A program made the translations under genes and the position numbers. A stretch of DNA of 64,000 bases from Balanoglossus misakiensis (taxonomy: Eukaryota; Animalia; Hemichordata). The notes under the pieces were generated by a model, which saw only the letters and a program-made list of their open reading frames with translations, ran no database searches and was not told where the DNA came from. Position 1 is the stretch's first letter. Each line of letters starts with the position of its first letter. The stretch lies in NCBI GenBank assembly GCA_040954595.2, contig CM082585.2, forward strand, positions 11,575,451-11,639,450, in the 5' to 3' direction. Of the stretch, positions 37,433 to 64,000 are shown piece after piece.

Positions 37433-37684
37433 TTTGCAAAGTTTTGACAAGTCTCGTTGTGCGCGTGACGAGAAATGACGAAATGTTTATAAATAAATCG
37501 AAAAAACTGATTACGATGTATTTTAGAAATATTTTGTTCATATCTTCCGAGTATTTGTCCAATTTGGTGTTTTGACCATTTCATAATCTGATTAAGGTAT
37601 ATGGCACACACATTTCCATGTTTGTGATATAATTTCAAAACAGACCTGTTGAACTAAATTTCCCATGAATCTGAGCAAACTAAG
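37433..37684. promoter_or_regulatory. Bidirectional promoter between RNF168 and EIF2A
   Basis: Divergent ATGs 252 bp apart. Both start codons sit in YY1-like contexts (AAAATGGCGG and AAGATGGCTG). Confidence 0.6.
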
Positions 37685-40600
37685 ATGGCTGCGCCCTGTC
37701 CACTTGTCGCGGGTGAGTTGATATATTGAGTTGACCCGAAAAATGAGAAAGAGTGCATACTTTGACAGTTTGAAAATATGCGACACTAACACGGAGTGAA
37801 ACAAACTAGAATTTTGCAAGAATGTTGTGTGAAAGTTCTTTTCTTTGAAGTATCTCGAGTTAGACTGCCACATGGCAATGTTTTCGTCGCACGTGCACGT
37901 GTGATAATGTACACACCTTCCACGTTGTGTCCCCCTCATACATCTTACCATATTGCTGCAGTTTTGTAGCCCCGCGACTACCCTTGACGATTTTTGTCTA
38001 ACTTCCCCATACCATGTGGTACGTCCATGCCCTCACATAAACAGCCGTAGATCCGCAGCAGATAAATGTAGCCCTGAATCCCGTACAGTGTTTTCCGAGA
38101 AGGGGGCGTTGCCCCCAAAAGACTGCCAGAGCACCAGGGTTACAATTATTGCACTTGCATATGTTTGGTTGTATTCTCTTTTTACAGTGCGGGCCTCTGC
38201 AGGCACATCGTTATTTCAAGGACCACCAGCATTGAAACAGTTTGACAACTTTTCAAGGTGACTATTTATTTTCTCTTTCAGTGACCTTTGACCTTGTTAA
38301 CCAACTAAAGCTAATCTTTATACATGTATAACTATGGCCAATTTCATCAGGTCTGTTGGGTTGGATGTGTGTGTATTGCAATTTTCATATAATAGTATAT
38401 CATTTAGCAAATACTAGTAATATGTAACAATAAATTAAGTAATGTACATTATATGTCAAATGAATAGTGAATGATCTCTTTCTTCATCTCTTGCAACAGT
38501 GACACAAGCCCAAGATGTAGAGTAATAGCATTCAGTGCTGATGGCAGTCTCTTTGCATGGTGTAATGGACAAGTGTAAGTATTACTTTTCATAAGTTATC
38601 TCTTTAACTAATGGCTGATCAGCTGTAGCTGATAACAGAAATTGTCAGTAGTTGATGGTGGACAAATTCAGATCTGCCTATGACTGTATTTTCATGCCAG
38701 GTTTTGAAATTTCAACCACGAATGTCTCAACCATCCATGTCCAATAATGTGCGATTTTTCCCCTTGCAGCATAAATATCACCAGTTTACCAACAGGTGAC
38801 TTTGTGCAGAGAATTGACCGACCCAAAACTGTGTGTCTGCAGTTTTCACCCAGAAACAACATTTTGGCAACTTGGGAACCTTATGCTGGTGAGTTATAAA
38901 TCATGAGTGTTGAATGTCATGTAGCATATTGATTAGGTTGGTACATGTAATATAATGAATGCAGTCTTCTGGGGACTTTGAATTTTAACCCAATTTTGTA
39001 GGATTTAGCAGGAAAAACCATAAACCTACTACCTCTGTTGAATTCAGTTACCAAGGATACACCAGCAGGAACTCCTAATTTGCATTTATGGGATGTGAAG
39101 ACTGCGCAAGACCTCAAAGGGTTTGTACAGAAGAGACAAGATACATGGTTAGTGCATTGACTTGCTGGTAGAAATCTTGTCAGGTCCCCTTTTCTCTCTA
39201 CAATCTTGTTTGGTGTTTTGAAAGATGTGATGACAGCTAAACCTGATCAATATATTTTGGACATCTTCATACATGCAACAGAAACAATAAAACAAAATTC
39301 CCGACCTACAGGCCTTCTCTATTTTTCTTTCAGGTGCCCTCAGTGGTCATCGGATGAGAGTATCTGTGCCAGAAATGTGAACAATGAAATCCATTTCTTT
39401 GAAGGCAATAACTTCGGTGGGTACCTCTCTGTTAAAATCTGTTTGGGAAAAAAATTGATGCAGAACATGCATGGCAATGCTTGTTGGTCCAGAAGTCTGG
39501 TTGAGAATGTGTGATGACTCTCACATCATTTGCACCGCTTCCTACCTACTGATTTTGATTTGATTTGATTTTTCACCCACACTAGACACCATAGTCAGAA
39601 AGCTTCACATCCAAAAGATTGCAGACTTCCGACTCTCTCCAGGTGACATGCCTTGCAAAGTAGCAACATATGTGCCAGGATCAAAGGTAAGATTGCAGCA
39701 GCATTATTAAAAAGTTTATCTGTAAAATATTATTATGATATGAAATACAAATGTGTTTATGAATAATTCAGCAGAATACAAATTTTCTATTTTCCAGGGT
39801 GCACCATCATTTGTACGTGTTTACAAATATCCAAATTTGGAAGGTCCTGGATCGATGATTGCAAACAAGAGTTTCTTCAAGGCTGACAGGGTCAACATAT
39901 TGTGGAATAAGAAAGGTAAGCTATCAACTGAAAATCTACATGTACACTCCAGGATATTCAATGGGGATATTATAAGCCCAAAAGAGAATACATATCACTC
40001 CTATAGTTGTTTCTGTTGAAATATTGTGTTATATTTTACATCTTGACCATTCCTCACAGGGACTGATTTGTTGGTGATTACAACAGTAGACGTTGACCAA
40101 ACAGGTGCATCATATTACGGTGAACAAGCTCTTCATTACATCAGTGCAAAGGGAGAAACAAGTAATGTACCTCTGGGTGAGTAGCCTGAGCGCGCTCTGT
40201 GAACTCTGACCTATGACACCTAGAATGACTCCTGTTACGCTGCTTGGTAGCCCATGACCTTCAACTATCAATGCAGGTGGGCAAGTTTGATTTGATGTTC
40301 CCGTAAAAACTATCAATGCACCTTTGCTAAGTTTAAGTCTCTATCATGTAACATTGGCATTTGTTTTTCCCTTTCCAGCCAAGAAAGGTCCTATATATAG
40401 TGTAGATTGGAATGTGAATTCCACTGAATTCTGTGTTGTGTATGGATGTATCCTTTGTTGTTTTCATGTCTAGTTTTAGACAATGTTTTGAATTCTTTCT
40501 CGAAACATTTGTGCCAGACCTTGGTTGGGTTCTGACTTCGTAATCTATGTCTATATCTAATTGCCAAAGATATGTATTCTAGTCATGGCTAGGTTGTAGT

Positions 40601-42930
40601 TACATCATGTGTGTTTGAGATCACAAAATAAGGCCATGACTTCCAAATATGGATAACAAGAGCGGTACTCCTTAACTGAGTGACAGTTATGCCTGCCAAG
40701 GCAACATTGTTCAACTTGAAATGTGAGCCTGTGTTTGACTTTGGTACTGGACCCAGGAATATTGTACACTACAATCCACAAGGAACCAATATCCTTTTGA
40801 TATACGTTTAGTGTCACTGTTCAATTTTCTATACATATAGTTCAGATAGATGATACAGACAGACACTGTAGCATGCACACATTCACACGTGCGTGCACCT
40901 ACACAAACACACACGTACACACATGCACATGTGCCACAAGCTCACCGACATGAGAATATAAATGAACTTTAACAAAATTTTCCCTAACTGTCGTCACTTA
41001 TTTGCTTGGCTGGATTTGGTAACCTGAGAGGAAACATGGTAAGTTAATTATGCAAGGAAAAGGTGTGCAGAGTTTAACAAAAATTGTAACGTTTCTCCCA
41101 CTGGACCGTGTACTGTTTGTCTTGCCTCACATGAAAATGTCCTCCATGTAAATTTCGTAGCCACGCATGACCTTGCAGAGTCTTGTGGAGTTCTGACAAT
41201 AACGCATCTTAAAATGTTGAATTTCAGGAATTCTGGGATCGCAAGAATCTGAAGAATATCAGCAAGATGACCGCCAGTGATTCGACTCACTTTGAATGGT
41301 CTCCAGATGGCGCTCACTTCTTGACTTCTACATGTTCACCCAGGTTGAGAGTAGGAAATGGGTGAGAGAGGGGGTACTTTATGGGATAAGCTGGGCTTTG
41401 TGGGGGCAGATAGGTTCATAACCTGGGTATGTCATTTAAGTGACTTGTCTCATTGGAGCATGTGTCTTTATAAAACACTGTCTGGGAGTAATGAATATAC
41501 AGTGGCTGATTTCATGGTTTGATTAGTTCGATGTCTTCAAAGCAGTGAGGTGGATGTCAATCAATTATTACAGAATACAATTTTGTGTACTTAGGTTCAA
41601 AGTCTGGCACTATACAGGAAGTTTACTGTACGAGACAGAAGTAGGGGAATTGTGGGAAGCCACCTGGCAGAGTTTCCTAGAGGGAGTGCTCCCAGAGAAA
41701 CCAATAGTGTACCAAGCTGTTCCATCATCCGTCAGCCCCTCCAAACCAGAAGCAAAACCTAATGCATACAGACCCCCAGCCCTGCGAGGACAGCCCCACA
41801 AAGCCATTAGCGTGGTAAGTACAGAAATCTAGTAGAATCAAAAATTGTGAATTGTTACATTACCAGTTATGTTGAGTTGTCCAAATTTAACGTAAAGAAT
41901 ATAGTGCACTTTGCAATAGTGTAGGTACAAAACTGACAGGTCAAATCCTCGTCTGTTTTTCCAGCACGCTCGGGAGGAGGAATTGCCACAGAATATGAAA
42001 CCCAAAGGAGACAGTGGTAAGAAATGCTACATTTTCTCCAGAAGTGTGAATTGCGCCCTCTATGCCAACAGAGTGAATGAATGGGGGATGGAAAAAAGAC
42101 AGATCCAGTCTTGTTTGAAAGTGGTTGACTATTCAAACTGCTTTGTCAGTTATGTTATGCCCCTTTTCTTCTTTTTTACAGAACATTTATCAAAGTCTGC
42201 TCTGAGGAATAAAAAGAAAAGAGAATCGAAAGCAAAAGGCAAACACGAGGTGAGGATTTGTTAAGATTAGTTTGAGTGTGATAAGGGGAAAGAACATTGG
42301 TCATCTTAACAGACAGAATAGATGTCTGTGATATCTAATAGTATTTTTGTTTTCAAATTTGAAGGATGAGTTATCCCAGGAAAAACGAGATGCCATCGCC
42401 ATGGCAGCCTACGTCATGGCTCCATCTCAACCAGCACCACATGTCCAGAATACTTTTGACCCAGACAGCAGTGGTGCCGATCCTGAGACAGAGAAAAAAA
42501 TCAAAGGACTGAGAAAGGTAGACCTATATTTTTAGTTTTTTGCAGATGTAGTCTAAAGGGAATAGAGACTCTTAAAATATTAACAACCCCATGTTGGATG
42601 AAAACCAACCAAAAATCTGTACTTGGAATGGATTTTGGTGCCATTTTCCAAACATATCAAATTTTCAACATTGAACACAATATAGATACCCAAGAGAGCA
42701 GATTTTTTTCAAACTGAATATTGCAAACTCTGAGCTCTGTGAAATTGGAATAGAAGTGTTGCTAGGAGATAGGTCTTTAATTTGCTTTTAAATTTGTTTT
42801 CTAGAAATTGAAGCAGATCGAGAAGCTAAAAGAACAGGCAGCATCAGGAAAGCAACTTGAGAAAAACCAGTTGGAGAAACTTGCAACGGAAGACGCCATA
42901 CTGCAAGAACTGGAAGAACTCAAACTTTAG
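37685..42930 (+). CDS. EIF2A: Eukaryotic translation initiation factor 2A (beta-propeller), multi-exon
   Basis: Starts MAAPCPLVAVRASAGTSLFQGPP, then WCPQWSSDE, YVPGSKGAPSFVRVYKYP, NKSFFKAD, VDQTGASYYGEQ, YGFMPAKATLFNLKCEPVFDFGTGPRN, LAGFGNLRG and AYRPPALRG. Ends KKLKQIEKLK...LEKNQLEK...ELEELKL*. Confidence 0.97.
40448..40686 (+). other. U12-type (minor spliceosome) GT-AG intron in EIF2A
   Basis: 5' site GTATCCTTT and branch point TCCTTAAC (40669-40676) just before the AG. Splicing restores YG-F-MPAK. Confidence 0.9.
40789..40997 (+). other. U12-type AT-AC intron in EIF2A
   Basis: 5' site ATATCCTTT, branch point TTCCCTAAC (about 40980-40988) and 3' end ...GTCAC. Splicing restores PQGT-I-ICLAGFGNLRG. 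Confidence 0.9.
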
Positions 42931-43081: not shown

Positions 43082-43385
43082 ACACATGATGACTGACAAT
43101 GAGGGCAACAGTGTATTTTGATGACCGAGGGCGCTGCTAGTCACAACTAAAACAGTCTTGTTTTCCCGAGGGCATAGCCCGAGGGAAAACAGACTGTTTT
43201 GGTGTGACTGGCAGTCCCGAGGTCATTAAAAATACACTGTTGCCCGAATATGTCAGCCATCATGTGTTTTATAACACACCAAACCGATCGAACTGATGCC
43301 CTAGGCAACAGTTCGAAATGACTAAGGTCACGTGACGTCGTATTGACGAATCATGATCGAGGGTTCGCTGCATGGTGTGTTATAA
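43082..43385. mobile_element. Palindromic non-autonomous DNA element in the EIF2A 3' UTR region
   Basis: An imperfect hairpin of about 85 bp (43082-43267) is followed by the inverted pair TTATAACACACCA / TGGTGTGTTATAA (43269-43385). Confidence 0.75.
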
Positions 43386-44442
43386 ACAAACATATTGACT
43401 GTCCAAGATGGCAGCCGTTATCGTAATATGACAAGTTTCTTTATGTAATCTGAAAATCATTTGAAAGTTTAGCACAATATATACAACACTCTTAAAGATT
43501 TTTTTTGCATGAGTCATAGTTCCATCCCATAGCTACTCATCTAAATCTAAATGTTATATTTTTTTTATGATCTGGTTTTTCTCCATATTCAATTTTTTTT
43601 TATTGTAAACCAAGCATCACAAGTAATCCTGTACTCTTCATTTACCGTTCCATTGTTAATCTTTTTCTTGTAAATAAAATAATAATTTTCACCATATGAT
43701 AATTATCGTGGATGGATGGAGTGTGTGATTTATGTGATCAGCAGATCTTCCTCTGAATTCAAATATTAGTTGTCAGACCAATAGTGTGTCTGGGCAACAA
43801 AGGGGTTTGTAGTAGGATAGCAGACAAACCTCTTATCATCAGAGACAGTTCTCGTGCTAGAGCACGGTGTACTTTTTATAAGTGTCATAATCTGGGCCAA
43901 GTATATTCCCCCATGACAACTAAGCTACACTCATGATCAAATCAATGAAAAAAATACACACAGGATATGATGAATCTACTTTCGGAATCATTTTATTGAC
44001 AAATCAATAATATAAAAACATAAAATCTTTCATATAAATGCTCAACATCTAAGTGTCATGATAAATTTTAAAATTTTCAATGTATTTGGGGAAAAAAATA
44101 AAAATTTTGCATTACTACATCCCTACAAGGGATTACTTTGCAGTCAAGGACAACTTTTGTCCAATACAGTAAGTGGCAACATTGTACATGTCAATAAATA
44201 TGCTCAATAATATAAGAACACTTGATAGCAAGTTTAAAATGTTAAATATTAATTTCCTATAAAAGGGATATTAAAATACTTTTTTTAAAATGTTCATTAA
44301 TTTCCCATAAAAGGGATATTAAAATTCTATAATGTAGTAAAAACTTCCCATTAAAGTCAACTAAGGTGCAAAATTCTGAGAAAGGTTTATTATTAAATTT
44401 AAATCTCTATAAAAATGCCCCTAACGGCTACCATGGTGACCA

Positions 44443-47403
44443 TCAAATCGTATTACTGATTACAGTATTGCGAATGTCTTGGAGGCTGAAAGCTGTGTTG
44501 AAGACAAAGTTTTCTGGGTCTTTCTGTTCCATCAGCATAATCCCTTTGCCACTGACTGCTAAGTAGAGACCTACAGAGGAAAACAAAACAGAATCTGTCT
44601 AGGTTACAATATTCTTGCATAGTAAAGAGTTATCTTGGATCAGATTGCAAACAAAAGTTTTTAGATGATGAGAGAAAAGTAGTAAATGTATTCATGATTG
44701 CTTACCTCTAAAATATGCTGACTCAAAGACATATCTATCTGTACCCTTAGCCCACAGTCTGCGATAAAACACTCTGCCATCAACATGTTTCAACTTCTCC
44801 AGGCTGACGAAGCCCACCTTCTGAAAAATAGAAAGCATTGGATATATTTTAAAATCCCCACTCATTTTTGGTGTGAAAGTAACCTTAGCTTTTTATATAC
44901 AAGAAAGCCATGATAACACTTTGTTTTCAAGTTTGAGAATTATTTTACCTTGAATGTCAGACTGCGATTGCGTCCTGTTGAAACGGCCAGGCACTTGTTG
45001 AATTGTTGGTTGAAGAGTACGACCGCAAGATCTGGATCGTCTGGGTTGACTTCATTTTGTATGTCGTATGGCCACAGAACTTTGTACTGGTACATTGTCC
45101 ATTGTCCTGCAATTATTCACAGAAGGAATAGACTAATTTAGAGATAAAAAGTTCAATACTTACAATCATCTTGCATCAATCAAGATACCTTGCTGAAAAC
45201 TGTTTTCATTCTCTGCCATGTATGAACAAAAATCTGTTTTCTCTCACCTTCTTTGAAATCATTATTTGCCGCCACTACTTGCAATCGATTCCTGTCAGGC
45301 ATGGCAACAAAAGAACTGGAATCATTGGAAGGATATATATATGTGTTGTATCTGTCATAGTAATGCACCATGGGGAATCCATCATCAGATTTATCTATGT
45401 ATTCCCTCTCCAAGACAATTGTCTCAAAAACAATTTTGCCATCTGGAAATCAAACAAAATAGAATCAGATTAGCAATTGAGTGTTGCACTCAACATACAG
45501 CCAATATGTCACAGTTTCAGGGAGGAAACATGTCCTTGTGAACAAAACGAGACTGACCATCAAACTAGCATACTTGGTTTTATCTCTAACTTTTTAAAAA
45601 GAAACTTCATTGGCCAATACACCGACACACAATAATTGAAGGTGGTGTAAAAACTCACTGTCAATCAGAATGTCTATCTTGATTTCAATAAATGTGTACA
45701 CTTCAGTTGGTCCGTCATCTTCATCATCATCATCATCGTCGTCATCATCAGGCTCAAGTTCTATCTTTCTCTTCAAGATCTGCAAACAGAAAAATATTTC
45801 CATGCTATTGAGAATTGTTTCAACTCTTTAATCACATGGCAGATGTTAGTAAATGTTCATTCAATTACACACTGTCACTGCATGAAGTAATTCTGAAAAT
45901 GTACATGCAATTTGACCACCAACTTTTGCCTACTTACAAATATAATTTGTCCGTCCATTTGATGAAAACGGTCCAAGATATCCCTGTGTTCAGCTGCTGA
46001 GACATCAAGGCCATTAACTGCATGCAGAACATCACCAACTCTGTGAGATTGAAAATATATCATGTTACAAGAGGACATTAAAGTTTGATCCAACTCGGGG
46101 AGAAAAGATTATTTTGCAGTGTTCTGCTGTGTTTGTGACAGCAGTCTTTAGTCACCTTTCAATGTTATCCAATACACAAGACCACATCAAAGCTGTGTAT
46201 GCGACTACAATGTTCCGACTAAAATACTATATGGCAGCTACAATACCTCAATTTGGTTTTCTTTACAAAATCATGTTGTTCTTCTACCGCCGTAATTTTG
46301 TGCTTCTTTCTATCTGGAGTTTTGTCGTCGACATCTGTGCTGAATTTTACTCCCAGTGAGTGAAGATGATCATCAGTGCAAGGTATTTTGATGTCAGATT
46401 CCTCATGGATTATTGGTGCTTCCTGTGCAGAAATCAATCAGTGTGTCAGTCAATACATAAAAACAATTAGTCAAGATCTGCTTTGTTTCATCATTAAAAA
46501 ACAACATGCACTAAATGCCTGTACTCTAACACTAACCAGGCATTGTCTGAAATATTATTCTGGCTTTCATTAACGTTTTTGTTTTATAAAAACAATCAAA
46601 GCAATCTTAACTTTTAGCTATTTGGTATAAAATATACTCCATTTCTGTGTTTGTAAACAAACAAACAAACAAACAAACAAACAAACAAACAAACAAACAA
46701 ACAAACAAACAAACAAACCATGAGAGAACATCCCATGGCCATATCCCTGTGATGGAGCTACACTATCTCCATCATGGGTTTTACCGATTGCATAATTTAA
46801 AGGCTATAAATAACCGAGGAATTTCCCTTACATTGCAGGGATGACAGCTCGAACTTCCGTATTTAAATACATGTACGTCCAAGATTGCCTAGCGAATTTA
46901 GTGAAGTATGTACAATTTCACCATCGATGGCTGAAATATGGTTCGTGAATAACCCCACTCGTGCCACGGTGCAAGGGTCAAACCGGCGAAGAAAACGGTG
47001 AGTGATTTATAGACCGCGGAACCACCACTTGTAATGAATTATCTGAGTGAAAAAACGATCGAGAGGGTTGGGGAAAATTTGCCAATAGGATGACATGAAA
47101 TTGACAACTTACCATACTATCCTGTGCTCGTATACAAGGTGTTATCACCTCGATCACTTTGTGTTCAAAGTCTTCCAGGCGGGAATGAATTGTGCTTGTC
47201 AAAGAGCCAATGAAGGATTCACTCTCCACAGGACGCGATTTTTGAAGCCCGCTGACTCTCTCTTCTCCGCACAGCTTTCCATCAACGCTGTCGTCAAATT
47301 CACCATCGAGGCCCAGACCTCGCATGGCGGTTGTGAACGACTTCTGTTTTTTAAATGCGCGAGGATCGGGCGATCGGGATCGAGTAGTTTTTTGTCCAAT
47401 CAT
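44443..47403 (-). CDS. Putative IL-1-family cytokine precursor with a PDZ-like domain, acidic linker and C-terminal beta-trefoil-like domain (8 exons, 428 aa)
   Basis: Exons 47403-47113, 46422-46247, 46040-45938, 45779-45659, 45442-45248, 45106-44949, 44820-44706 and 44570-44443 are all GT-AG and phase-consistent, giving one open frame. PDZ-like LGVKF...LRVGDVLHAVNGLDVSAAEHRDI; IL-1-like RVFYRR...YVFESAYFRGLYLAVS...TAFSL. No signal peptide. Confidence 0.75.
46655..46718. repeat. (AAAC)16 microsatellite in intron 1 of the IL-1-like gene
   Basis: Directly visible. Confidence 0.97.
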
Positions 47404-47490
47404 GTCGAAGTCTCCGATTTTTTCAGAGTGTGTCTCAGTTAAACATCTACTAGTAAAGTTCCCAGGCTGTCGAATGCTCAGGCTGTCGAT

Positions 47491-47537
47491 ATTTATAGAC
47501 ATGGAAATCCGTGACGTGTACAGACGGGGAATTCCCC
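47491..47537 (-). promoter_or_regulatory. Core promoter of the IL-1-like gene: TATA box, CRE half-site and palindromic NF-kB site
   Basis: Minus-strand CTATAAAT (47491-47498), TGACGT (about 47512) and GGGGAATTCCCC (47526-47537). Confidence 0.7.
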
Positions 47538-48876: not shown

Positions 48877-51800
48877 CTAAATTGCGATATTTGGAACATG
48901 TTCATGATGGACCTGAGCTTTAATGTTTTCTCTTTTCGTTTCATCGTCCAGACTTACAGCGACAAAGTCTGTTTCTAGTGCTGAATCTGCACTCACTGCA
49001 GTTCCACTTCTGGTAGTTACACCCCCGTTGTCCAGTCCCGGCCCGTCCACCAGGTCAGAGGTCGGTGAACCGCAATACCCACTCTCACCCGATGAGCTTA
49101 TCTGCCAATCGATCAGATTCTGTCGCTCCAACTCTTCCGACTGGAGCGTCTTCGACTGATCAGATATAGCCTTCAGGGCGTGGGATCTCCCTGACGGACT
49201 TCTTGGTAACTGCAGCAACAATGTCTTCCAGAATTTGGCGGTTTTCTTCAAATTGTCCGGTTGCCATTTCAGACAATTTGTGACCCTGATGATGTGTTTC
49301 AGGGCTTTCATGTGATCAATATCTGCATTGGCTGGAAGTTCTTTGGCAATGATGATAACCAGGTTGCTGTGGAGTTTGAGAGAATGTTCTAATGCCACGT
49401 TGAATTGAAACGAACTCCAATGCTCCTTCAGGTAGTCGGGGGTCAGCACAATGATCCAACTTTGGCTGGCTTCAATCGACTCAACAACACTATCTGCAAT
49501 AGCTATCATACAAATACAAATGAAAAGTTAGTAAAACGTGTGATTTTTTGGAAATTTTTACTTTCAAATCTATAAATTTCTGATGTAGTTTTGCAACAAT
49601 GCATGTACAGGATAGTCATTTGATTAACTTTTGATACACTGATTATAGAATATTTTAGGTTTAATCAGAAAGCAATTATGACTTACCAGTTCCAGCCAAG
49701 AAATCTCTTTGCTCGACACAAAGTTTGAATCCGCACTTTCCCTCAAGGTAGCGCATAATGACATATTTGACAAAGCGAAAATCTTGATCTGTTCCACTGT
49801 GTGAGATGAACACATCATACTTCTTGTCATCTGTGGAAACAGAACACAAATGTGGATGAAACTGTATGACACATGGCAGTTGCAATGTGCTACAAACAGG
49901 TATTGTCTTCCTAAAAAGTTTATACTACATTCCTGATTATTAAAGATACAAAGTCTCACTTTTAGTACGGTAAAGAAATTTAAAATTTCAAAAAAATTAT
50001 CAAAAATTTATCAATATTAAAGTTACATGTTTATCATCATGGCCGATCTCAGTGACGCAAATTCAAATTTTGGCCTTGAGTGAGAAACTTCCAGGTTTTC
50101 CTGTTAACTTCCATATTTATTTTGTGTGCAAACAATTATCCGGTACTCATATTCAGCAGATACCGGAAAATTCCAGTTAATGACGGACAAAATTTGGGTC
50201 AGGGACTGCTGTACTATGACCTATATTCCTGCCCAGTTGAATGCTCTGCAATTCTCTGGTTTGCTTCATACATCCTTCATTGCACATGGGGTCTTTGGTA
50301 AACTGGGTTTATATTAGAATATTTCTCTGGAAGTGTATATAAACCAAAGTTCAAAGACTGACGATCATATTTCTCATGCGTGTTTATCATTGGAGCACGT
50401 ATTCAGGACTATGACCCAGTTATCTTTGGCACTGATGAATGGGTGAATGCACTGGCTCTATAGACATTAAAAGCCATGAATACTATTTCCAGGAAATTTT
50501 ATTCTGGGGGGATATGGTGAGCAGGAGTGGGGTGCTTTGAGCAGAAGAAAAGAAAAAAGTTTGACAATTCGTGGCGATAATGTTACATTCTTTGGAACGT
50601 GGATCCGGACATGTTTTTCACGGAATAGAACAGAAATATATTTCTTTGAATACAGTAATCATCCTATCAGTTCCGCTGTACAGGTTATAAGGTCAAACAC
50701 AGAATGATGTCTGAGTATCTTATGTCTGGACTGGTCTTTTGAAATTCTTAAAATTTTCTCAGCATATCTCAAATGTCCATTGTTGAAGTATTACCCAGCA
50801 TCTAGGTTTTTTTGAAATGCGATAACTGGGTTAAAAGGTTTATGAGGCTTTGATATGATTTAAAGGCTGACACCAGTGAACCCACTTGTAATTGTTTGAC
50901 AAGGCTACGTGACTTGAATCCTATGACCTATATATGGTACTGGTTAAAACCACTTTTGGTTGTCACTGTTTTGTAAATATTTTCACACCTGTTGAATATT
51001 AGGCTTGTGCTTTCGCAGTGGTATTACCACATGGTTCAGTACAAGGAAAAACATCAACAGCTTTGATGAGAGAACAAACATTAACTAATGGAATGTTTAT
51101 CAAACTGCCCTCTTGATGACATCACAAAACTGGTTTTGGTCACTGGACCGCTCGCGTAAACATGTTAACAACCGACAACAAGGCGGTGACTGCCCTATTG
51201 TGAGTTGTGACCCCACGAAAGGTGTGGCAAAAGTCCAAGGAGGGGTCATGACCTCCAGGAGGCAGCCATAAAAAGAAATAGTACCATATACGGTAGTAAG
51301 TTGCTGATCAATTTCCGTAGGAAATTACCATCACCTATTCAACAAAGACTGAACAGGCCAGCAATTAACTTACATAATGTTGAGTAATCGAAGAACTGCG
51401 GACCGGACCGGACCGGAACTACCAGTAGGAATGTGCTCTTTAGAAAATATAACACAGCAGTGTAACTGAATAATACACTCATGATTTCTACATATCGTGT
51501 TTTATGGGAAGAGCTGATCTGTAATTAGACTCTGGTTATGAAATGTGATATTGTATATTGCACATTTCTCCGTCTCAAGAAGGCAACTCAGTCCTTTTGA
51601 GTTCAATCAGAGTTCAGAACCTGATGGGCCTGCAAATATACCAGATATCACTAGAAATACTCAGAGACCAGGTGTATGTAGACCATTGTGGTGGCAGTTT
51701 TGCATGTCCTCAAGATATTCTCTTTGAATTTAATTTTGTAGGTATGTGTATAACATGTAATTAACACTAAACAGACTGGTGGAAAACAGTTTAAAATTCA

Positions 51801-54516
51801 TGTTTGTCCCTTCTTTTATTATATATATATTTGCTTAAATAAATATTAACATATTTGGAAGTGTAACGCAAAATGGACATAACTCCAAGATCATTTACAA
51901 ATACATAAATCTGCATGCATGAAATATTGATAAATCTGTGAAATATATTATAAACAATGTTGAATATTTCTGTATGGTATAAATATCTCTAACACTGTAA
52001 AAAACTCCTCTGTATCCAAGTCTGTATCTGTATATTGTAGAATTCTTCAGGTCTTTCATAAACCCTTGAGGCTCTTGGTGAAACACTACCAAGACTATCA
52101 TAAAAGCAGACTGCTGATTGGTTATTGCTCATCTTCTGTGGTCACTCCAACCAATTGGAACCATTCTTCTGATACACTGTGAGATGTCGCCAGGTCATCA
52201 CACCGCTTCTTACATTTTTGCACTGGCAGTCAGAAAGAGGCTGTTTATGTGTTCAACATCCCAACCATTACCTCTAACCCCCCCCCCCCCCCTAGATGAA
52301 ACCCTGCAACTCTCATTGTCAATGAAAGATCAACAGTTCTAAGAAAAATTCTTAATCTTTTCTTAAGTAAATATTTCTTGTAAAAATGTCTATGAATTTA
52401 AAATTCACACATTTAACATTATCTCACTAGTTTCCCCTTTACTATGTAAAATTGCTACATAGCAGCTTATCACTGTTACTAATATAGTACAACAAAGAAT
52501 CTTATGTATTCAAAAGACGATAAATGGTAACAAATGCATGACACAGCATATTCTACCAGGGTCTAGTATGTATGTTGCCTTCCATGTGGAGAGCGCCTTC
52601 TAGTGGTAAATCTGGCAGTTCATGTTTTACTTGAACATTTCTTTGTCACCTTCAGCCAAAGATTTAAGAAAAATACTACTGTATCTTCGATTGTTTTTGA
52701 AACCTTTTTTATACAACATGTTTGTCAAATGTGTTATATGTGCTTCTGTTGTCTTCCGTTTTGAGGTTTGTGCGATCCTTTTCTGGCAGAGAGGGCGCTT
52801 TCTCGAGTGAGGGAGGACACTTACCATTTTTTTCCACTTTGCCAAAATTGTACTTGTAGATGAGTTTTATATCAAGTTTGAATGTCATGCCAAGGGCGGA
52901 CAGAATGAGTGCCATGATGACAATCGATGAAAGGACTATAATTATGATCAATAGGGTTGTGCTTTCTGCAGTTGAAGGTCCTGGATTTGGATCTGAAAGA
53001 AAATGGAGAACATTCTAAATTGAAAAGTATTGTATTTGATATGTACAACGAAAGTTATTATTTATAACTAGCCTACTTTAAAGGCCAATATTTGTTGATG
53101 TTAGCATTTCTATAGATTTTAACAAATGATCACTTTTTCACTTATTAAATCAGGGATACAGTTGCATGCTGTTACCCTCACAGCCAGTCAATATGCATAT
53201 ACTATATCCCCCTGGAGTTGCTTTGTTATCTGCCTCTGCAAATGTACAATAAACAGACTTACCCCCATAACTCAGTACCAAAGGAATATCTATGCTTCCA
53301 TGGGCGTTGACTGCTTTCACTACATATGTGGCATAAGTAGAAGCTCTTATGTCTTGTATGTAAAGATATATGCCGATGGTTTCATTGTCATCTCTGAAAT
53401 CAATACACAAATAATTTTGTTGTTGTTGTTGTTGTTGTTGACTATTTTTGTTTGGTTATCAATTGCAGTCCTATCCTACCATTGAATACAACAGGGTGGA
53501 ACTATATTTTCATGGTAAAGGGTCTTGCTATTTGCCTCTCACCTTCCCCTCTGTCTGGTACTGTATGTTCTGTTATCTAAGTCTTCTATGAAGTAATTAC
53601 TTGTCTGGTTGTGCTTGTACCAAAAAATCATCTTGTCTTCGTCTCCACCATGTCCAAAGAAGAACTCGCAGTAGAACGTCACATTAGAGCCATGGAGTCT
53701 GGTGTAGTTACGGCAACGTGTCGAGTTCAGCTGGTGGGGTTTCTCTGTAAACTGCATTGCTGTGTGTGTATGGGAAAAGTTTGAAAAACAATTTGCTTTG
53801 TTAATTTTTAACTGAGAGTAGTGATGATCTGACGGAATTGAACACATCTGTACTTTGGATTGAATGTACACCAATATACTGCAATTTATTCTCAACAGAG
53901 CCATACAGACATGACCATGTACTTGAAAAATTCAAAGAAAATCTTACGTTTGGCCTGTAGTTCTTTGGTGTGGCTGATTGTACTTGTTCCATTGGAAGCA
54001 CTACATGTATAGCTTGCCTCATCCCTCGTCATCAAATACCGGAATACTAAGGTCTGGTTTCCATTATCCATGAAAGTCTCTGCTTGATCGACCCCTTTCC
54101 ATGGATAAGGATCAGAGCCTTTATACCAAGTCATCATCAAATACCCTTCGGCACAGCACGACATGTCTTTGTATTGGGTAATGGTTCCAAACTCAAGATC
54201 ACCCATGTCTGGGTTTGTGAACTTGAAAGTGTCATCTATATTGAAAAGAAACAGCAATCAAATACCAAAAGATCAACTAAAAGTACATGATAATGATACC
54301 CCTAACTATTGACTTGTCATAAAACTGAAAGTTGTTTTATAAAAGCGAAAGTTGCGTATTTAATTACATCTTGGTTGTCAAGTTGTGAGACCCACCTTCA
54401 TCGTGCCCATTAAACTGATCACAGACGTTTTTCCCATGAGCATGGAATACCAAAATCGAAGACAATATTATTATGACTATTCTGGACTGCAGTGGACACC
54501 TTGTCAGTTGTTCCAT
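48877..54516 (-). CDS. Interleukin-1 receptor-like protein: signal peptide, two Ig-like domains, transmembrane helix, TIR domain and C-terminal tail (7 exons, 564 aa)
   Basis: Exons 54516-54396, 54235-53948, 53759-53543, 53393-53263, 52992-52825, 49830-49687 and 49502-48877 are phase-consistent. Ig motifs C..WYK..DEASYTC and VTFYC..IFWYK. The TM is followed by FKLDIKLIYK (compare IL1R FKIDIVLWYR). TIR: DDKKYDVFISHS, GFKLCVEQRDFLAG, SQSWIIVLTPDY, KFWKTLLLQLP. Confidence 0.9.
52592..52618 (-). promoter_or_regulatory. CTCF-like motif in the large intron of the IL-1R-like gene
   Basis: Minus strand reads CTGCCAGATTTACCACTAGAAGGCGCT, with core CCACTAGAAGGCGC. Confidence 0.5.
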
Positions 54517-55473
54517 GGTTTTCAATGAACTGAAATAGTAAAGCAATATCATTTGGGATGTTATGCTATTTTACACGTAAATGATGAATTCAGCATAATT
54601 TGGGAAACCCCGCCTGCGTCATCGCCTTACAAAGGAACTGATGAAGTGCGGAGGAGAGGAGTGCGTAACGGCCCGTACGTCATTAATCTCACCCCTGACT
54701 TTGTTCATGTATGAGCGTGACCAGGAAGGTCCAAGAAAGTAACTTACAAACACAATGTTGGTCTGATCACAGTGACTGTGCTGATCACCATCACCATCAG
54801 TAAGATCAGGATGTGACAACCGTGTTCCACTTTCAAAAACTTTGTACACAACATACATTCCATGCCAATATTACCTTAAATAATTACGGACTCATGTTAC
54901 TTTCAACGTCATGTTGCATTTCATAGCCCGGCCGCGTGATGACCTCATTTGACTCGGACGCAAAGCGCGCGTTTTAGGGCAAATTCCAGGAAATCGCCGC
55001 CTTAGAACCGGAAGTAAATAAATGTGACTTCAGTACAATACAAAGTAGGCAAAGATGGCTAGAATAGCTTCGCAGACATAGCCATTTTACCTGTTTAAAC
55101 TATTTTACCCCACTGCGATATTAAAGTTTTAATTAACACAGTTGCTAAGCAACCAGACGCCACAGCCGGCCCACCAAAGGTACAACCCCTCCCTACCATA
55201 CTTACCCACCCCCATCAATTCATGAATTGGTCCAGTTCAGTTCCTCTTGCACTCAATGCGCAGTCTCTGTCCACGTTCTTGCAAAGGTGGCACCCTTCGA
55301 CAGTGAAGAACTTTGTTTTCATTTTCCCTACCCGGTACTCCAGTATTCTTGCCAATATAGAGTAGTTGTGTAGAGGGTACACGGTTTGTCAGGTCAGTAG
55401 TCTTTTCATCAAAGACATTCTTGTGGGAAGATCGTACCAAATAATTTATTTGACGCTTTAAAACCCTTCGACC
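54517..55473. promoter_or_regulatory. Divergent promoter region between the IL-1R-like gene and GCC2
   Basis: kB-like GGGAAACCCC (54602-54611), STAT/GAS TTCCAGGAA (54984-54992), ETS CCGGAAGT (about 55008) and YY1-like AAGATGGC (about 55052). Locally CpG-rich. Confidence 0.55.
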
Positions 55474-58400
55474 ATGGCGGTGAGTAATGACTACAGGTTG
55501 TGGTGTACATTTGTACGACAACCGAACTTCAGAAGAGATTGGAGATATTACCGTGGTGTGAAGGTGGAAACGGGGAAATGGGATGGTGGGTTTGATGGGA
55601 GTAACTACTGTAGATGTTATAATTAAGTCCTAACACCCACAGATTCCCTGGTGATTGTGTATTGCAAGGTACATGTACATGTAGCCTGGATAGGCGTTTA
55701 CAATACATGCCATCACTAACCCTGGAACAGCTGAATGTGATGCCAGGTCATGCAGTGATTGATGTATTGTATTTGATGTGTTGGCACAGCCATGGAGTAC
55801 ATTAAGCTACTAGTAGTACCTCAAATGGTCTAGCCTAGAATCTATAACATTGCTTATTTTGGGTCACAAGTGGATTCTATGTGTATGGAGTGACCTAGCT
55901 TCAGCTCAGTAGCTCGAGGTTAAACCAATAGGCAAAAACCTCGAGGTAATGAAGTGCAGCTAGGTGTGACCTAGCAAATGTGCAAATTAAAATCAACTGT
56001 AGAGATAGGCTCCAACCTTCCACTGCTAGATGTAATTGATGCTTGCAGGTTTGTTCTTCTGCTGTCACCTCTCTGCAAAAGAACAAGAGCAGAAAGAGGC
56101 AAACACCCAGCAAATGTAAAGGTGGCACCTATCTCTACAACTGGTTTTTATGCATTCTAAAAATTAACTGCAAATTTTGAAACCAGGTGACATTTGTTAT
56201 TCCGAACTGCGTGACTAAGCCCCTTTTGATAATGGTATATTAGAAAACTGTATGCTCCTTTAGCAAGTGTGGTATTTGCATGTATTATTTTCAGTTTGCA
56301 TGCAACATGTGGCCGGGATATTAGTGTTTACCATATTTATCCTATTGTGGATGGTTTTGTAAATTTACAGAGCTGTACAACAACTCTCTCATTATTAAGA
56401 AATCAGATGTTTCAACTTCTGGAGAAAAAACCTACATAATAAGAATTAAATAATTCTAACATTGACTGTTGTGAACAAAAAGTTGGGAGTTTTTTAATGC
56501 AGGGTATTTTTATGGCATAGACTATGAATAGAAAAAGTACAGTAAATCTGTTTGGAACAACATCATAACATGTGTTACATACTGATCTGTTTATTTATGG
56601 GTCAGTGATTTATAAAATCAGCGTATTATTAAAAGGAACGACACAGGTCCAGGTCATGGATTCCCTGATTTCTATCTCTTCTATTGGTTGGAAATCTGGT
56701 CAACATTGGAAAATGGGATAAACATAAGGACCAAAATGGCCAATTGATTCATTTTCTTAACCTTTGACCTTTACAGTCAGATACATGGGGAGACTGGGAT
56801 GAGAAATTTCTATCGGAGGAAAAACACCAATTTGGAAAGATGAATGAAGAGAACAAAGAGGCAGTGTCACCGGGCGGAGAAGGGGCAACGAAAACCACCC
56901 CACAAAAATCAGGAAAGGTAAGGATGGAGATTTACAACGCATTTGCAAAGTTAGGTTTTCATCAGAATTTTTATACTACTCCATTTATGGCTGCTCAGTG
57001 TAATAAGTGTTGGTTTATTGCTGACCTCTGCAATATTATTTGTTTCTTCGTCCAGCTGGATTCCTTGTCAAGGGAAGATTTGATCAAGTATATCAAAAAA
57101 CAACAGATACTGGTCCAGAAAATCAGAGCAAAATGTGATGGTAGGTGCATAGCAATGAAATCATCAAAAATTAAAGTGGAATGTGATTTCTTCATTTTAC
57201 ATCAGCAAGTTTTGCTTCTTCGTTACCCTTTATTTCAGCAAATACATTCAATTTTTTTTTACAGACTTAGCCAAAAAGAACACAGAACTGGAAAAGGATA
57301 AGAATGATAGCTCGAGTGCCGAGGGCCAAGGCAAAATTCAGGTGAGTTTGACAATGAAATGTATGATAAAGATTAACTGTTAGTGCATGTATGTGTTGTG
57401 TTAGTCTAGAGATTATCTGGTGATTTTCCCTGCAAATAGGAATGTCTATAGACTGCTATGAGAACCTCTAAGCAACTATTTCTGCATTGCAGGAGTTAGA
57501 GTCTGAACTTGCAGACTTGAGAGCTGAACACAAAGAATTGATGGCCGCTTATAGTGGTGTCCAACTACAACAGGAAAATTCAGTGCAAATCCATGAGGTA
57601 AGAGAATGTTACATGCAGGCACATATACCTTACATAAAGTATTGACAGAATAGGTGGCGGTTTTGAACAAATTAGACAGACATTGTCAAGTTCAGATTTG
57701 CAATGGATATTTCCCTAAGAAATCTAATAAAGACTAATATTGATCTCCTTTGTAAAATAAAAAAATGATTCTAGGATCTACATAGTAAGGTCAGTGAATG
57801 GACAGAAAAGTTTACAAAAAGTGAAGAAGAAAAGAAAAAAATCCAGGAACAGTATAATGCTGAGGTGAAAAAGAATCAGGTGAGTTAGTCTGTGCTGGAA
57901 TGAAAGAATGATACTGATTGGCTACTTGACACCAACTGCTTGTTTAAATATCCAATTGTCTGCTGTTTTTTAAACTGGGTGATTTGAAGACTCTGTTGGT
58001 ACCCAGCATGCATGTGAGAATCCCCTCTTCCCAACATAGGGTTGCAGCAAAAATAGTTCAATCTTTATGCTGTTGATAAAGTTGGGTTTGTGGGTAACCT
58101 TGGTGTGTGTTGGTATTAAGGTGGTTCCTTCCATGTTCCCTTGGTTATTAGAACATGGCAGAGCAGTTTGAGTGCATGAAGATGAAAGAGGAAACCATGG
58201 CAACCACATTCCAGTGTCTGCAAGAGGAGTGTCAGAAGCTGACTCAGGAGAAAAAAGTAATGCCTTTATTTACGACATACCGGTATTATCAAAAGAAAAA
58301 ATTCAGAAACAAATGCATGTGTAAATCAATGTTTATGCATGTTGAGACAGAATTGACCCTTGACCTTTGAACTTGTGGATCATTGCAGGACTTGAGTGAT

Positions 58401-61400
58401 CAGGTCAGTGTTTTGACCGTGGCCAGAGATGAAACCATGAAGGCTATGAAAGCGCTGAAGCAAGAGCAGCAGGGTAGCGACAGTGCCAGCGCTCAGCTGC
58501 AGGTCCAGATAGAAGCTCTGACAGCAGAAAGAGATATGGCCAAGTCTGAAGTACAACAAGCTGTGGAGAAGATTGCTGATCTGCAGGGGAAGTTGGAAGA
58601 TGCAAAGTCTGGTGAAGAGAGACTCGAGGAGGAGAGTAACAAGTTGAGAGATGAGAACCAAGATTTGAAGTCAAAAGTTGAAGAGTTGACGGCCATCAGA
58701 GATGAGCTTGAAGGTCTCAAAGCAGGTGTGGGGCAGAAAGACGAGGAATGTGAAAGTTTGAGATCAGAAATGAAGAAACTGACAGAGAGTCATGAAAGCG
58801 TTAGAGGACTTAACGAGGAACTGAAATCACAGATTAGTTTACTTATGAATGAAATGGAAGTTGTCATTGAGGAGCGGGACAAAGTCAAGCAAGAAATTGA
58901 AGCTGTCAAAACTGAACAACAGAAGATAGCGGAGGAGAAATCTGATATTGAAAAGAAGCTCGAAGAAGTGATGAATGAAAAGGAACAGGTTAATTCAGAG
59001 TTTGAGACTGTGAAATCTGAGAGAGATGATTACAACAAAGCCCGGGAAGAACTGAGGAGTGAACTTGATTCAGTTCTGTCAGAAAAAGAGAGGTTGTCGG
59101 TGAGGTTGACAGAGATTCAACAAGACCAGGAGAGATCAAGCGGGGATTTAGAAGGAGAGTTAGAAAGAGTGCGTAACGAGAGGGATGGACTTTCTGCAGA
59201 TGTTTCACGGTTGCAGTCAGAGAAAGAAGAGCTTGTCAAGGAATCTGAGAGTGTGAAGCAGGAGCATGAGAGCTTTGAAACTGAGATGAAAACCAAATTT
59301 GAATGTTTGCACGAAGAAATGGAGAAAATGAAAACAGAGCTTGCAAGATTGAATGCAGAACGGGACGAGATTAGCAGAGAGTTGGAAGACTCCCAGGTTG
59401 AGAAGGAGAGGTCGGTCGATGAACTGAAAATTCAACTGGACAACTTGAAGACGGAGAAGGAAAATGTTGCATCAGAGCTGGAGAAAGTGATTGAAGACAG
59501 AGACAGGATGATGAAGAAGCTAGAAAGTGCCAACATAGGAGTTGAAACCACGGCGATGGAGCTGCAGAATGAAATGAAGAAAGTACAAGAGGAAAGAGAT
59601 CAGCTGCATGTACAGACGGAGAAGTTGATGGGAGATAACCAGAGGCTCTGTGATGAGATGGAAATGGCCACACATGAGCACAAGGGTGCTAGACACGACC
59701 TAGAGAATGAGTTAAGTGATGTGAAATTCGAGCGAGATGAGCTGAAAATCAAGATGGAGTCGCTGCAGGAGGAAAGGGCAAAGTGGACGGGAGAGATGGA
59801 GGTTGTCAGTCACGGTCTGGAGGAGGCCCTCAACGACATGCAAGGTAAACTTGAAGCAGCCAACAGCCAGGTAGGGCAGCTCACGTCACAGATTGAAAGT
59901 TTGGAAAAGGAGCGCGATCAACTCACAGGAAATTTACAGACACTGCAGAGGGATAATGAAAGCTCATCTGGTGAACTTCAAAATGAATTGCAGAAGGTCA
60001 GAGGTGAATTGCAGAGTGTTCAGGAAGCTCTGTCGGTCAAAGAGGCAAATCTTGAAAATGCCGAACAGCGGTTGAGAGATGCGATCCAAGAAAACAATGT
60101 TGTGAAAGAGAAACTGACAGGAGAGCTGCAGGGTGTGATTTGTGAAAGAGATGAGATGAGAAGCAAATTAGAAGAATTTGATCAACTTCGGTCTAAGTAT
60201 GAGAATCTTCAGGAGCAACTGAAGTCGGCAGAAGAAGCAAAGGAACAATTGGAGGAAAGTTTCGGCGGACAGAATGCAGCGAGAGATGAGGAGCTTGGCA
60301 AACTGCAGACTGATGTCCAGAATCTGCAGGGTCAGCTTGGGTCAGTGGAGGAAAGAAACCAGCAACTACAGCAGCAGTTGGAGGAGAGTGTCAGCAAACA
60401 GAATGAGGTCAAAGGTGATCTGGAAGTGATGTCAAAGGTCAAATCAGAGCTGGAGGAGCACTTGCAGAAATTGAAAGAAGACGTGGAGAAGGAGAGATCA
60501 GAATTCAGAGAAAAAATTGAAAGTTTAGAGTCGGAGAACAACCACTTGAAAAATGAGCTATCATCATTGAAAGACCAGAAACAGATGGCAAATGAAGAAT
60601 TGCATACAGAGCTCACTAGAATCAGGGAAGAAAAAATCTCCTTAGCAACGGAGTTTGAGAATATTCAGAGGTCAAATGTCAACATGGAAGGAAGGTGCCA
60701 AGAACTGGAGAATAATCTTCAGACTTTACAGGCAGAGAAAGTTGAAATGCTTAAGATCAAAGAAAAGTTAACTCAGGATGGAGAAGCTTGCACAGAGGAG
60801 CTGAAAAATAAAATTCAGAATTTAGAAAGTGAGAAGGACAAGATAACGGCAGATATGGCTGCTTTGAAAGAAGAATCTCAGAGGAAAGATGAGATGAATA
60901 ATGAGATGAAGAAAGAACTCAGTAACCTAGCAACTGTGAGAGAAAACTTAACCTCCGAATTGGACTCACTTAGAGAGCAATATCAAAATAGCGATGAAAA
61001 TAGCAGTAAACTCACAGAGGAGATCTCTGTTCTGAAGTCACAGACTGAACAGTTGGAAACTCTGAAACAGAATCTTGAAGCTGAGGTGGAAGCGAGTAAG
61101 AAAAGCCTACAAGAGAAAGAGGCGCAGCAACAGGAAGTGACATCACGGTTGGAGGAATCAAACAACAGACACGGAGAACTGACAGAACGTATTCACAAAC
61201 TGGAAGAGGAGCTTGGAACAGTGCAAGAGAGACTTGCAAAAGTGACAGAGGAGAAAGATGGGCTGATGAAAGAATTGGAAATTGAGAAGGTGGGCAGAAA
61301 GAAAACAGAAGAGACTGTACAAAAGATGTCGGAAGAGAAGGGAGAAGAAGGGGCTTTAGAAAAGGAGCTGGGTAAGGACAAATCTCACTTAAGAAATTGA

Positions 61401-63873: not shown

Positions 63874-64000
63874 GTAAGTACTTGTGTCAAAGGGTGACAT
63901 TTTTGTTTGTTTGTTTTGTTTCTCATCTTCAGCATCTCCACAAGGTTGATGGATTGTCAAACCATATAATTTTTTTCATGTTTGTTTGTTTGTAGCAATC

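What the first reader, a model, noticed from the sequence alone, without database searches (positions are those of the whole stretch)
44443..47403. Hidden invertebrate IL-1-like cytokine gene with a PDZ-like prodomain
Seen: eight phase-consistent exons give a 428-aa protein with no signal peptide. Its last ~165 aa (FPMVHYYDRYNTYIYP...GQWTMYQYKV...LAVVLFNQQFNKCLAVSTGRNRSLTFKKV...RVFYRR...YVFESAYFRGLYLAVSGKGIMLMEQ...TAFSL) follow the layout of mature IL-1beta (PVALGL..NLYLSC..PTLQLE..RFVFNK..LEFESAQFPNWYIST..TDFTM). Upstream lies a PDZ-type segment (LGVKF...LRVGDVLHAVNGLDVS..H..I). Established: classical IL-1 family cytokines are leaderless beta-trefoils described mainly in vertebrates, and they lack PDZ domains. 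Inference: this is an ancestral-type IL-1 precursor in an invertebrate. The IL-1 signature is imperfect here (no Pro, no terminal Thr). Invertebrate IL-1-like proteins may already be reported, so novelty needs a literature check.
Basis: partly seen in the sequence, partly recalled or inferred. Interest (0 to 1): 0.92.

Follow-up and report, generated by a model that had tools for sequence, protein, structure and literature searches.

The report
Acorn-worm ancestral IL-1 beside its receptor
This is an intact eight-exon gene, likely from an acorn worm, that closely matches a listed member of the recently published 'ancestral interleukin-1' family and sits next to a gene for its likely receptor, so it is a further example of a known kind of immune signal rather than a new discovery.

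Summary
The gene is real: eight minus-strand exons (47403-44443), all GT-AG, give 428 aa that align end to end with a RefSeq acorn-worm protein (43%). The reading is right but already in print: Fontenla-Iglesias et al. 2026 (PMC13736523; preprint 2025) describe 'IL-1anc', PDZ plus IL-1 trefoil, across invertebrates. Their listed Ptychodera flava member is colinear with this protein (40/64 and 27/38 identical in two exons, counted by eye). The window also holds their locus: EIF2A, the cytokine, then a two-Ig TIR receptor gene; GCC2 was not confirmed. My folds of a homologue were low-confidence (pLDDT about 42) and only ranked IL-18/IL-33 first; no RNA run was listed. Not in the paper's text: NF-kB consensus sites about 125 and 90 bp upstream of the cytokine and receptor starts (local shuffles 110/5000 and 88/5000), suggesting a feed-forward pair. 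The scan met this family before in other genomes. New member of a known kind; low interest.

The parts
47113..47403 (-). Exon 1 (aa 1-97): start codon, basic KKQK patch (aa 18-21, likely NLS), DSVD-G motif (aa 38-42), low-conservation N-terminal region
   Evidence: KKQK kept in 3 of 3 database homologues; the matching stretch of PflaIL-1 is listed as a predicted NLS
46247..46422 (-). Exon 2 (aa 98-156): first half of the PDZ domain
   Evidence: 26/59 identical to P0024; homologue profile matches PDZ chains
45938..46040 (-). Exon 3 (aa 156-190): second half of the PDZ domain
   Evidence: 13 of 13 PDB hits are PDZ proteins, E 0.1-1.5
45659..45779 (-). Exon 4 (aa 191-231): acidic linker with LEPD (198-201), poly-Asp and DEDD-G (209-213), candidate caspase sites; start of a predicted beta-hairpin
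   Evidence: hairpin from the low-confidence homologue model
45248..45442 (-). Exon 5 (aa 231-296): end of hairpin and start of the IL-1-type trefoil (about aa 250 on)
   Evidence: found P0007 at E 5.8e-08 over its whole length; 40/64 identical to PflaIL-1 by eye
44949..45106 (-). Exon 6 (aa 296-348): middle of the trefoil
   Evidence: 33/52 identical to P0024
44706..44820 (-). Exon 7 (aa 349-387): carries the FES motif (44727-44719); tandem acceptor allows a start at 44817
   Evidence: 27/38 identical to PflaIL-1 by eye
44443..44570 (-). Exon 8 (aa 387-428 and stop): end of the trefoil
44386..44391 (-). AATAAA 52 nt past the stop codon, candidate polyadenylation signal
47490..47537 (-). Candidate core promoter of the cytokine gene: 12-bp palindromic kB consensus site (47526-47537), CRE-like TGACG half-site (47512-47516) and TATAAATA (47497-47490)
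   Evidence: 110 of 5000 local shuffles of the 300 bp upstream hold a kB site; TATA and CRE not tested against chance
46818..46827 (-). Second kB consensus site, in intron 1
48877..54516 (-). Neighbouring IL-1R-like gene, 7 exons (54516-54396, 54235-53948, 53759-53543, 53393-53263, 52992-52825, 49830-49687, 49493-48877), 561 aa: signal peptide, two Ig domains, transmembrane helix, TIR domain, tail
   Evidence: 1 of 4 boundary sets stop-free, all GT-AG; TIR PF01582 E 6e-08; I-set E 7e-05 for Ig1, Ig_3 E 0.043 for Ig2; first TIR exon best PDB hit IL-1RAcP E 7.8e-05, then SIGIRR
54602..54621 (-). kB consensus site (54611-54602) with a TGACG half-site (54621-54617), about 90 bp upstream of the receptor start codon
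   Evidence: 88 of 5000 local shuffles hold a kB site
38471..42930 (+). EIF2A gene (approximate span), tail to tail with the cytokine gene; synteny marker of the published locus
   Evidence: exon matches eIF2A structure 8dys at E 1.8e-14; exon ORFs
56768..64000 (+). Long coiled-coil gene running off the window, in the place of GCC2 in the published locus; GCC2 label is recalled, not confirmed
   Evidence: generic coiled-coil hits only; a GRIP domain was not seen in the window

Best explanation
The gene encodes a leaderless 428-aa protein orthologous to the published acorn-worm IL-1anc proteins, with a PDZ domain, an acidic linker and a likely IL-1-type beta-trefoil, and it likely works as an immune-inducible cytokine precursor that would signal through the two-Ig TIR receptor encoded next door. 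Shown here: gene structure, orthology, PDZ resemblance, FES motif, no leader, linkage to EIF2A and an IL-1R-like gene. Inferred from the paper's work on sea urchin, lamprey and anemone relatives: transcription rises on immune challenge (about 70%), which the kB/CRE/TATA promoter here fits; the basic N-terminal patch may hold the precursor in the nucleus (about 50%); a caspase may cut in the acidic linker (LEPD or DEDD-G) to free a 25-kDa trefoil fragment (about 40%); release is unconventional, through pores or cell death; the trefoil binds the neighbouring receptor, whose TIR domain would activate NF-kB and so raise both genes (about 40%).
For: Colinear with PflaIL-1 (XP_070538561.1) from the start codon on, by eye 40/64 in exon 5 and 27/38 in exon 7; 43%, 39% and 38% to three database homologues over the full length. 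PDZ: Pfam PDZ_6 in 4 of 4 homologue sequences, best E 5e-04; 33 of 33 PDB hits of the homologue profile are PDZ-bearing proteins by name, best E 8e-04. Trefoil region: 18 of 19 PDB hits are IL-18 or IL-36Ra (E 0.21-1.4); ESM Atlas best hit IL-18 at 0.90 for the homologue; Foldseek ranks 1-9 IL-18/IL-36Ra; VIA ranks 1-2 pro-IL-18 and IL-33. Locus agrees with the published ambulacrarian one. Family members are induced by infection and one is cut by caspases. kB sites upstream of both starts.
Against: No IL-1 match reached significance: no Pfam IL1 hit for any of 8 exons, only E 0.091 in 1 of 4 homologue sequences. Both AlphaFold models were poor (mean pLDDT 40.8 and 42.5), their matches had rmsd 12-14 A or Z under 4, tied with lectin trefoils. 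The window-wide count of distinct kB sites (5) is not above chance (31 of 300 shuffles), and the promoter test was chosen after seeing the sites. In the paper only one tested IL-1anc (SpurIL-1.3) was cut by caspase-1, its DEPD site does not lie behind a PDZ domain as the motif here does, a DxxD-G motif in the linker is missing from 3 of 3 database homologues, and neither receptor binding nor pro-inflammatory action has been shown for any member.
Confidence: 0.85

Rival explanations
1. It is an IL-1anc family member that acts mainly inside the cell or as a constitutive, uncleaved nuclear alarmin (IL-1alpha/IL-33-like), with the PDZ domain as a scaffold; the neighbouring receptor is not its partner or needs a co-receptor from elsewhere.
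For: KKQK patch kept in 3 of 3 homologues and listed as NLS in PflaIL-1; two sea-urchin members are nuclear and most tested members were not cleaved; the paper notes that short-Ig vertebrate IL-1R relatives are inhibitory rather than ligand-binding.
Against: Promoter with kB site and TATA box fits an inducible gene; ligand-receptor linkage is kept across cnidarians and most ambulacrarians.
Confidence: 0.1
2. The C-terminal domain is a beta-trefoil of another kind (FGF, fascin, AbfB/CBM42, ricin-B lectin) or only converges on IL-1, so the protein is not a cytokine.
For: No significant IL-1 match by sequence; one AbfB-like chain (RsgI5) tied for the best profile score; lectin trefoils lie within 1 Z of IL-18.
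Against: IL-1 family chains lead in four searches; no FGF or fascin among the 19 profile hits; orthologue published as IL-1 trefoil by structure modelling (legend only); sits next to an IL-1R-like gene.
Confidence: 0.04
3. The eight-exon model is wrong or the gene is a silent pseudogene.
For: No transcript evidence was obtained; exon 1 is the least conserved (23/97 to P0024).
Against: Stop-free frame across seven canonical introns, full-length match to independently annotated proteins, promoter and polyA elements.
Confidence: 0.01

Closest known systems
PflaIL-1 (Ptychodera flava LOC139118898, XP_070538561.1; Table S2 of PMC13736523)
   Same: Colinear over the 400 of 422 residues shown: same start, basic patch, PDZ, acidic linker with xEPD and DxxD-G, trefoil with FES; 40/64 and 27/38 identical in exons 5 and 7 by eye.
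   Different: Not the same sequence, so another species; slightly longer N-terminal region and poly-Asp run here.
Glandiceps talaboti LOC144442221 and LOC144442320 (P0024, P0025; RefSeq 'uncharacterized') and unnamed P0026
   Same: Full-length homologues, 43%, 39% and 38% identical.
   Different: More distant than PflaIL-1; two paralogues in Glandiceps, one copy in this window (tblastn); no DxxD-G in their linkers.
IL-1anc family (Fontenla-Iglesias et al., Nat Ecol Evol 2026, PMC13736523; preprint PMC12338702), including SkowIL-1.1/1.2 and fish nIL-1F
   Same: PDZ + IL-1 trefoil, no signal peptide, (F/L)ES, linkage to EIF2A and an IL-1R-like gene.
   Different: Nothing structural. The paper lists two hemichordate species only and its main text has no occurrence of 'promoter', 'binding site' or 'TATA'.
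Vertebrate IL-18, IL-33, IL-36Ra, IL-1beta
   Same: Leaderless precursor with C-terminal trefoil and FES; best-ranked weak matches.
   Different: No PDZ in these; no IL1_propep match here; identity to them under 20% in the fold searches; orthology to any single one is not supported.

Membership tests
IL-1anc | N-terminal PDZ domain | tested here: met
   all PDB sequence hits are PDZ proteins; Pfam PDZ_6 in 4 of 4 homologue sequences, below the curated cut-off; PDZ part of the homologue model at pLDDT about 60-70.
IL-1anc | C-terminal 12-strand IL-1-type beta-trefoil | tested here: inconclusive
   Homologue models pLDDT about 42; IL-18/IL-36Ra/IL-33 rank first but not significantly. The orthologue PflaIL-1 is listed among the paper's trefoil models (legend only).
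IL-1anc | (F/L)ES motif near the C-terminus (strand 9) | tested here: met
   FES at aa 380-382, kept in all aligned homologues; strand number not tested.
IL-1anc | No signal peptide, under 500 aa | tested here: met
   428 aa; N-terminal hydropathy maximum 0.6.
IL-1anc | Sequence homology to a listed member | tested here: met
   By-eye comparison with PflaIL-1 and SkowIL-1.1/1.2 rows of Table S2.
IL-1anc | Ambulacrarian synteny: EIF2A and IL-1R-like gene | tested here: met
   eIF2A; Ig-Ig-TM-TIR; paper text.
IL-1anc | Linkage to GCC2 (hemichordates, crinoids) | tested here: inconclusive
   A long coiled-coil gene lies in the expected place, but searches gave generic coiled-coil hits.
IL-1anc | Conserved intron phases in PDZ and trefoil | tested here: inconclusive
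   Phases here are 0,2,0,1,1,0,1; the paper's values are in a figure that is not held.
IL-1anc | Induction on immune challenge; caspase processing; receptor binding | not testable with these tools
   Needs RNA or bench data; binding is unshown for the whole family.
Classical vertebrate IL-1beta/IL-1alpha | IL1_propep pro-domain and no PDZ | tested here: not met
   No IL1_propep hit in 8 exons or 4 homologue sequences; PDZ present.
FGF, fascin, ricin-B, AbfB trefoils | Best profile or fold match to these families | tested here: inconclusive
   Ranked below IL-1 family chains but within the noise of poor models.

The most novel reading that the evidence does not exclude
The cytokine and the adjacent two-Ig TIR receptor are a cognate pair wired as an NF-kB feed-forward cassette (each has a kB site beside a CRE-like half-site within 130 bp of its start codon), and this RNF168-EIF2A-IL-1anc-IL-1R-GCC2 block is the single ancestral locus whose neighbours now flank both the human IL-1 receptor cluster and IL1RAP (map positions recalled), which would make invertebrate IL-1Rs true pro-orthologues and not convergent look-alikes.
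Probability: 0.3. Interest if true: 0.6.

Novelty: new member of a known kind. Interest (0 to 1): 0.24.

Why it matters
The headline (IL-1 exists in invertebrates, with a PDZ pro-domain) was published in 2025-2026, with acorn-worm members and this locus. The finding adds one more species and shows that the first-stage reader recognised a family that sequence profiles miss. Its remaining value is practical: one cytokine gene and one receptor gene lie 1.5 kb apart, a compact candidate pair for the paper's open question of ligand-receptor binding, with candidate kB promoter sites that can be tested.

Tried and rejected
Pfam scans of single exons or exon-bearing ORFs found no PDZ or IL1 family. 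Word-indexed homologue search with exon 5 found none of 4 candidates. The HMMER search gave 23 hits: 22 matched a short stretch several times over and were dropped as repeat matches (1 of the 22, P0001, was read and is an unrelated repeat protein), 1 was the true homologue. An alignment search added no sequence beyond the three clusters, so folds had only 4-7 rows and failed to reach confidence. PDB searches with exons 6 and 7 alone gave 1 unrelated and 0 hits; the second half of Ig2 gave none. No RNA holder was listed and no genome is held, so expression and paralogues outside the window are untested. The apparent kB excess (11 vs 3.1) was rejected as multiple counting of palindromes. LEPD as the counterpart of the SpurIL-1.3 site was rejected as positional homology. 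The Saccoglossus poly(I:C) study's one held supplement did not contain the SkowIL-1 identifiers; its full expression tables may. A complex prediction was not run: the window's ligand and second Ig domain are each spread over several exons, and a cross-species ligand that did not fold alone would say little. Searches for GCC2+IL1R1+synteny gave 0 papers and IL1RAP+3q28+RNF168 one unrelated listing, so the human map positions remain recalled.

Full report
Observation. The finding lies on the minus strand. Exons 47403-47113, 46422-46247, 46040-45938, 45779-45659, 45442-45248, 45106-44949, 44820-44706 and 44570-44443 join through seven GT-AG introns into 428 codons and a stop. Of seven exon-2 boundary pairs tried, one was stop-free; random GT/AG choices near the boundaries were stop-free in 10 of 20000 draws. 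A tandem acceptor at exon 7 also allows a 427-aa form. The N-terminus has no hydrophobic stretch (maximum 0.6, against 3.35 for the receptor next door) and FES lies at aa 380-382. No RNA run was listed, so splicing rests on homology.

Homologues. An HMMER search with exon 5 gave 23 hits; 22 were repeated short matches and were dropped, one (P0007, E 5.8e-08) matched the whole exon. It is Glandiceps talaboti LOC144442221, an acorn-worm protein annotated 'uncharacterized'; it brought a paralogue (P0025) and an unnamed protein (P0026). The spliced model aligns with these over its full length at 43%, 39% and 38% identity, without breaks at the junctions, and tblastn finds one copy in the window.

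Literature. A search for IL-1, invertebrate, PDZ and trefoil returned Fontenla-Iglesias et al., Nat Ecol Evol 2026 (PMC13736523) and its 2025 preprint (PMC12338702, listing only). Of the paper I read the abstract, introduction, sections 6, 7, 9, 10, 11, 18, 20, part 1 of 2 of sections 12 and 63, passages, and parts 1 and 3 and searched rows of supplement 4; figures are not held. It defines IL-1anc: N-terminal PDZ, C-terminal IL-1 trefoil, (F/L)ES, usually no signal peptide, from cnidarians to fish. Table S2 lists PflaIL-1 and SkowIL-1.1/1.2 (the PflaIL-1 cell is cut at 400 of 422 letters). By eye PflaIL-1 is colinear with the model from the start codon on, with 40 of 64 identities in exon 5 and 27 of 38 in exon 7. 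It is closer than the Glandiceps proteins (27/65 and 22/39 for P0024) but not identical, so the window is likely from another acorn worm near Ptychodera (inference). The paper's genome table has two hemichordates; Glandiceps, Balanoglossus and Schizocardium do not occur in the seven supplements as text. Fish nIL-1F with PDZ was described earlier (PMC7144542, listing only).

Domains. PDZ: 13 of 13 weak PDB hits for exon 3, 33 of 33 for the homologue profile, best E 8e-04 (PDZ content judged from the names), Pfam PDZ_6 in 4 of 4 homologue sequences, under the curated cut-off. Trefoil: no Pfam IL1 hit in 8 exons and E 0.091 in 1 of 4 homologue sequences; 18 of 19 PDB profile hits are IL-18 or IL-36Ra at E 0.21-1.4; the ESM Atlas ranks IL-18 first at 0.90 for the homologue's C-terminal part, with IL-33 and IL-1 clusters below. 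AlphaFold models of the Glandiceps homologue, whole and trefoil only, had mean pLDDT 40.8 and 42.5. Foldseek put IL-18/IL-36Ra in ranks 1-9 but at E 0.02 or worse and rmsd 12-14 A; VIA-align put pro-IL-18 (Z 3.8) and IL-33 (Z 3.6) first, tied with lectin trefoils. My structural test is therefore inconclusive; the fold assignment rests on orthology to a member that the paper modelled.

Locus. The paper states that all ambulacrarians have one IL-1 linked to EIF2A, that hemichordates show linkage to GCC2, and that IL-1R-like genes lie beside IL-1 genes except in sea urchins. Here EIF2A lies downstream, tail to tail, with RNF168 beyond it. Upstream on the same strand, 1.5 kb away, is a seven-exon gene for a 561-aa protein with signal peptide, two Ig domains, a transmembrane helix and a TIR domain; its first TIR exon matches IL-1RAcP best, then SIGIRR, of 30 PDB hits. 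A long coiled-coil gene follows where GCC2 is expected, but tools gave only generic coiled-coil matches; that label is recalled.

Regulatory hints. A 12-bp palindromic kB consensus lies at 47526-47537, with a TGACG half-site and TATAAATA between it and the start codon; another kB site with a TGACG half-site lies about 90 bp upstream of the receptor's start. Shuffles of each 300-bp upstream stretch held a site in 110 and 88 of 5000 cases, and 30 of 1274 windows of 300 bp in the sequence hold one. Against this, the window-wide count of 5 distinct sites is not above chance (31 of 300 shuffles) and the test was chosen after the sites were seen. The consensus is from my own knowledge. The paper's main text has no occurrence of 'promoter', 'binding site' or 'TATA'. 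Hemichordates have NF-kB signalling (PMC10210618: abstract and passages); its one held supplement did not name the SkowIL-1 genes.

Mechanism. Most likely an inducible leaderless cytokine precursor. Relatives are induced by bacteria, flagellin or cGAMP. The KKQK patch, kept in 3 of 3 homologues and listed as a predicted NLS in PflaIL-1, suggests a nuclear pro-form, as seen for two sea-urchin members. The acidic linker offers caspase-type motifs (LEPD, DEDD-G); a cut after D212 would free 25 kDa holding the trefoil. This step is weak: only SpurIL-1.3 was cut in the paper, at a site in a different position, and DxxD-G is absent from the linkers of the three database homologues. Binding to the neighbouring receptor is inferred from linkage only; the paper says that binding and pro-inflammatory action are unproven.

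Verdict. Observation confirmed, interpretation supported, novelty low: a new member of a published family, in the published locus. Four earlier notes of this scan report the same family in other genomes; none exists for this place. What may be new is the paired kB promoter sites and the recalled link of the flanking genes to both human IL-1 receptor regions, for which two searches found no relevant paper; both need the comparisons listed under next steps.

Noticed in passing
window 54516-48877 (-): IL-1R-like gene with two Ig domains; in the second Ig domain the position of the usual second cysteine appears to hold valine (pattern recalled), while an extra cysteine lies near its start.
   Followed up: partly
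window 33995-37486 (-), 38.4-42.9 kb (+), 56.8-64 kb (+): RNF168, EIF2A and a GCC2-like gene flank the pair. From recall, human RNF168 and EIF2A lie on 3q with IL1RAP, and GCC2 lies on 2q between the IL-1 receptor and IL-1 clusters; the paper's text does not name RNF168 or IL1RAP.
   Followed up: partly
P0024, P0025 (Glandiceps talaboti LOC144442221, LOC144442320): Two IL-1anc paralogues annotated 'uncharacterized' in RefSeq and not named in the paper's supplements as text.
   Followed up: partly
window 47292-47278 (-): DSVD-G (aa 38-42), an effector-caspase-type motif between the basic patch and the PDZ; a cut there would remove the likely NLS. A similar motif is in P0026 and, by eye, SkowIL-1.2, but not in P0024, P0025 or PflaIL-1.
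   Followed up: partly
window 44820/44817: Tandem CAG-AAG acceptor of exon 7; the shorter form matches the length of PflaIL-1 in that stretch.
   Followed up: partly
window about 43100-43250: Roughly 150-bp imperfect inverted repeat between EIF2A and the cytokine gene, seen by eye; possibly a small non-autonomous transposon.
   Followed up: no
window about 46655-46720 and 45716-45749: (AAAC)n microsatellite in intron 1; GAT-repeat run coding the poly-Asp linker.
   Followed up: no
window 0.2-29 kb: Other genes: AAA ATPase (PEX1-like, label recalled), L7Ae-family gene, RNase H2 subunit B, aldo-keto reductase (Pfam), and INTS6-like and amine-oxidase-like genes (labels recalled, no Pfam hit). A palindromic kB site at 28337 lies in the last of these.
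   Followed up: no
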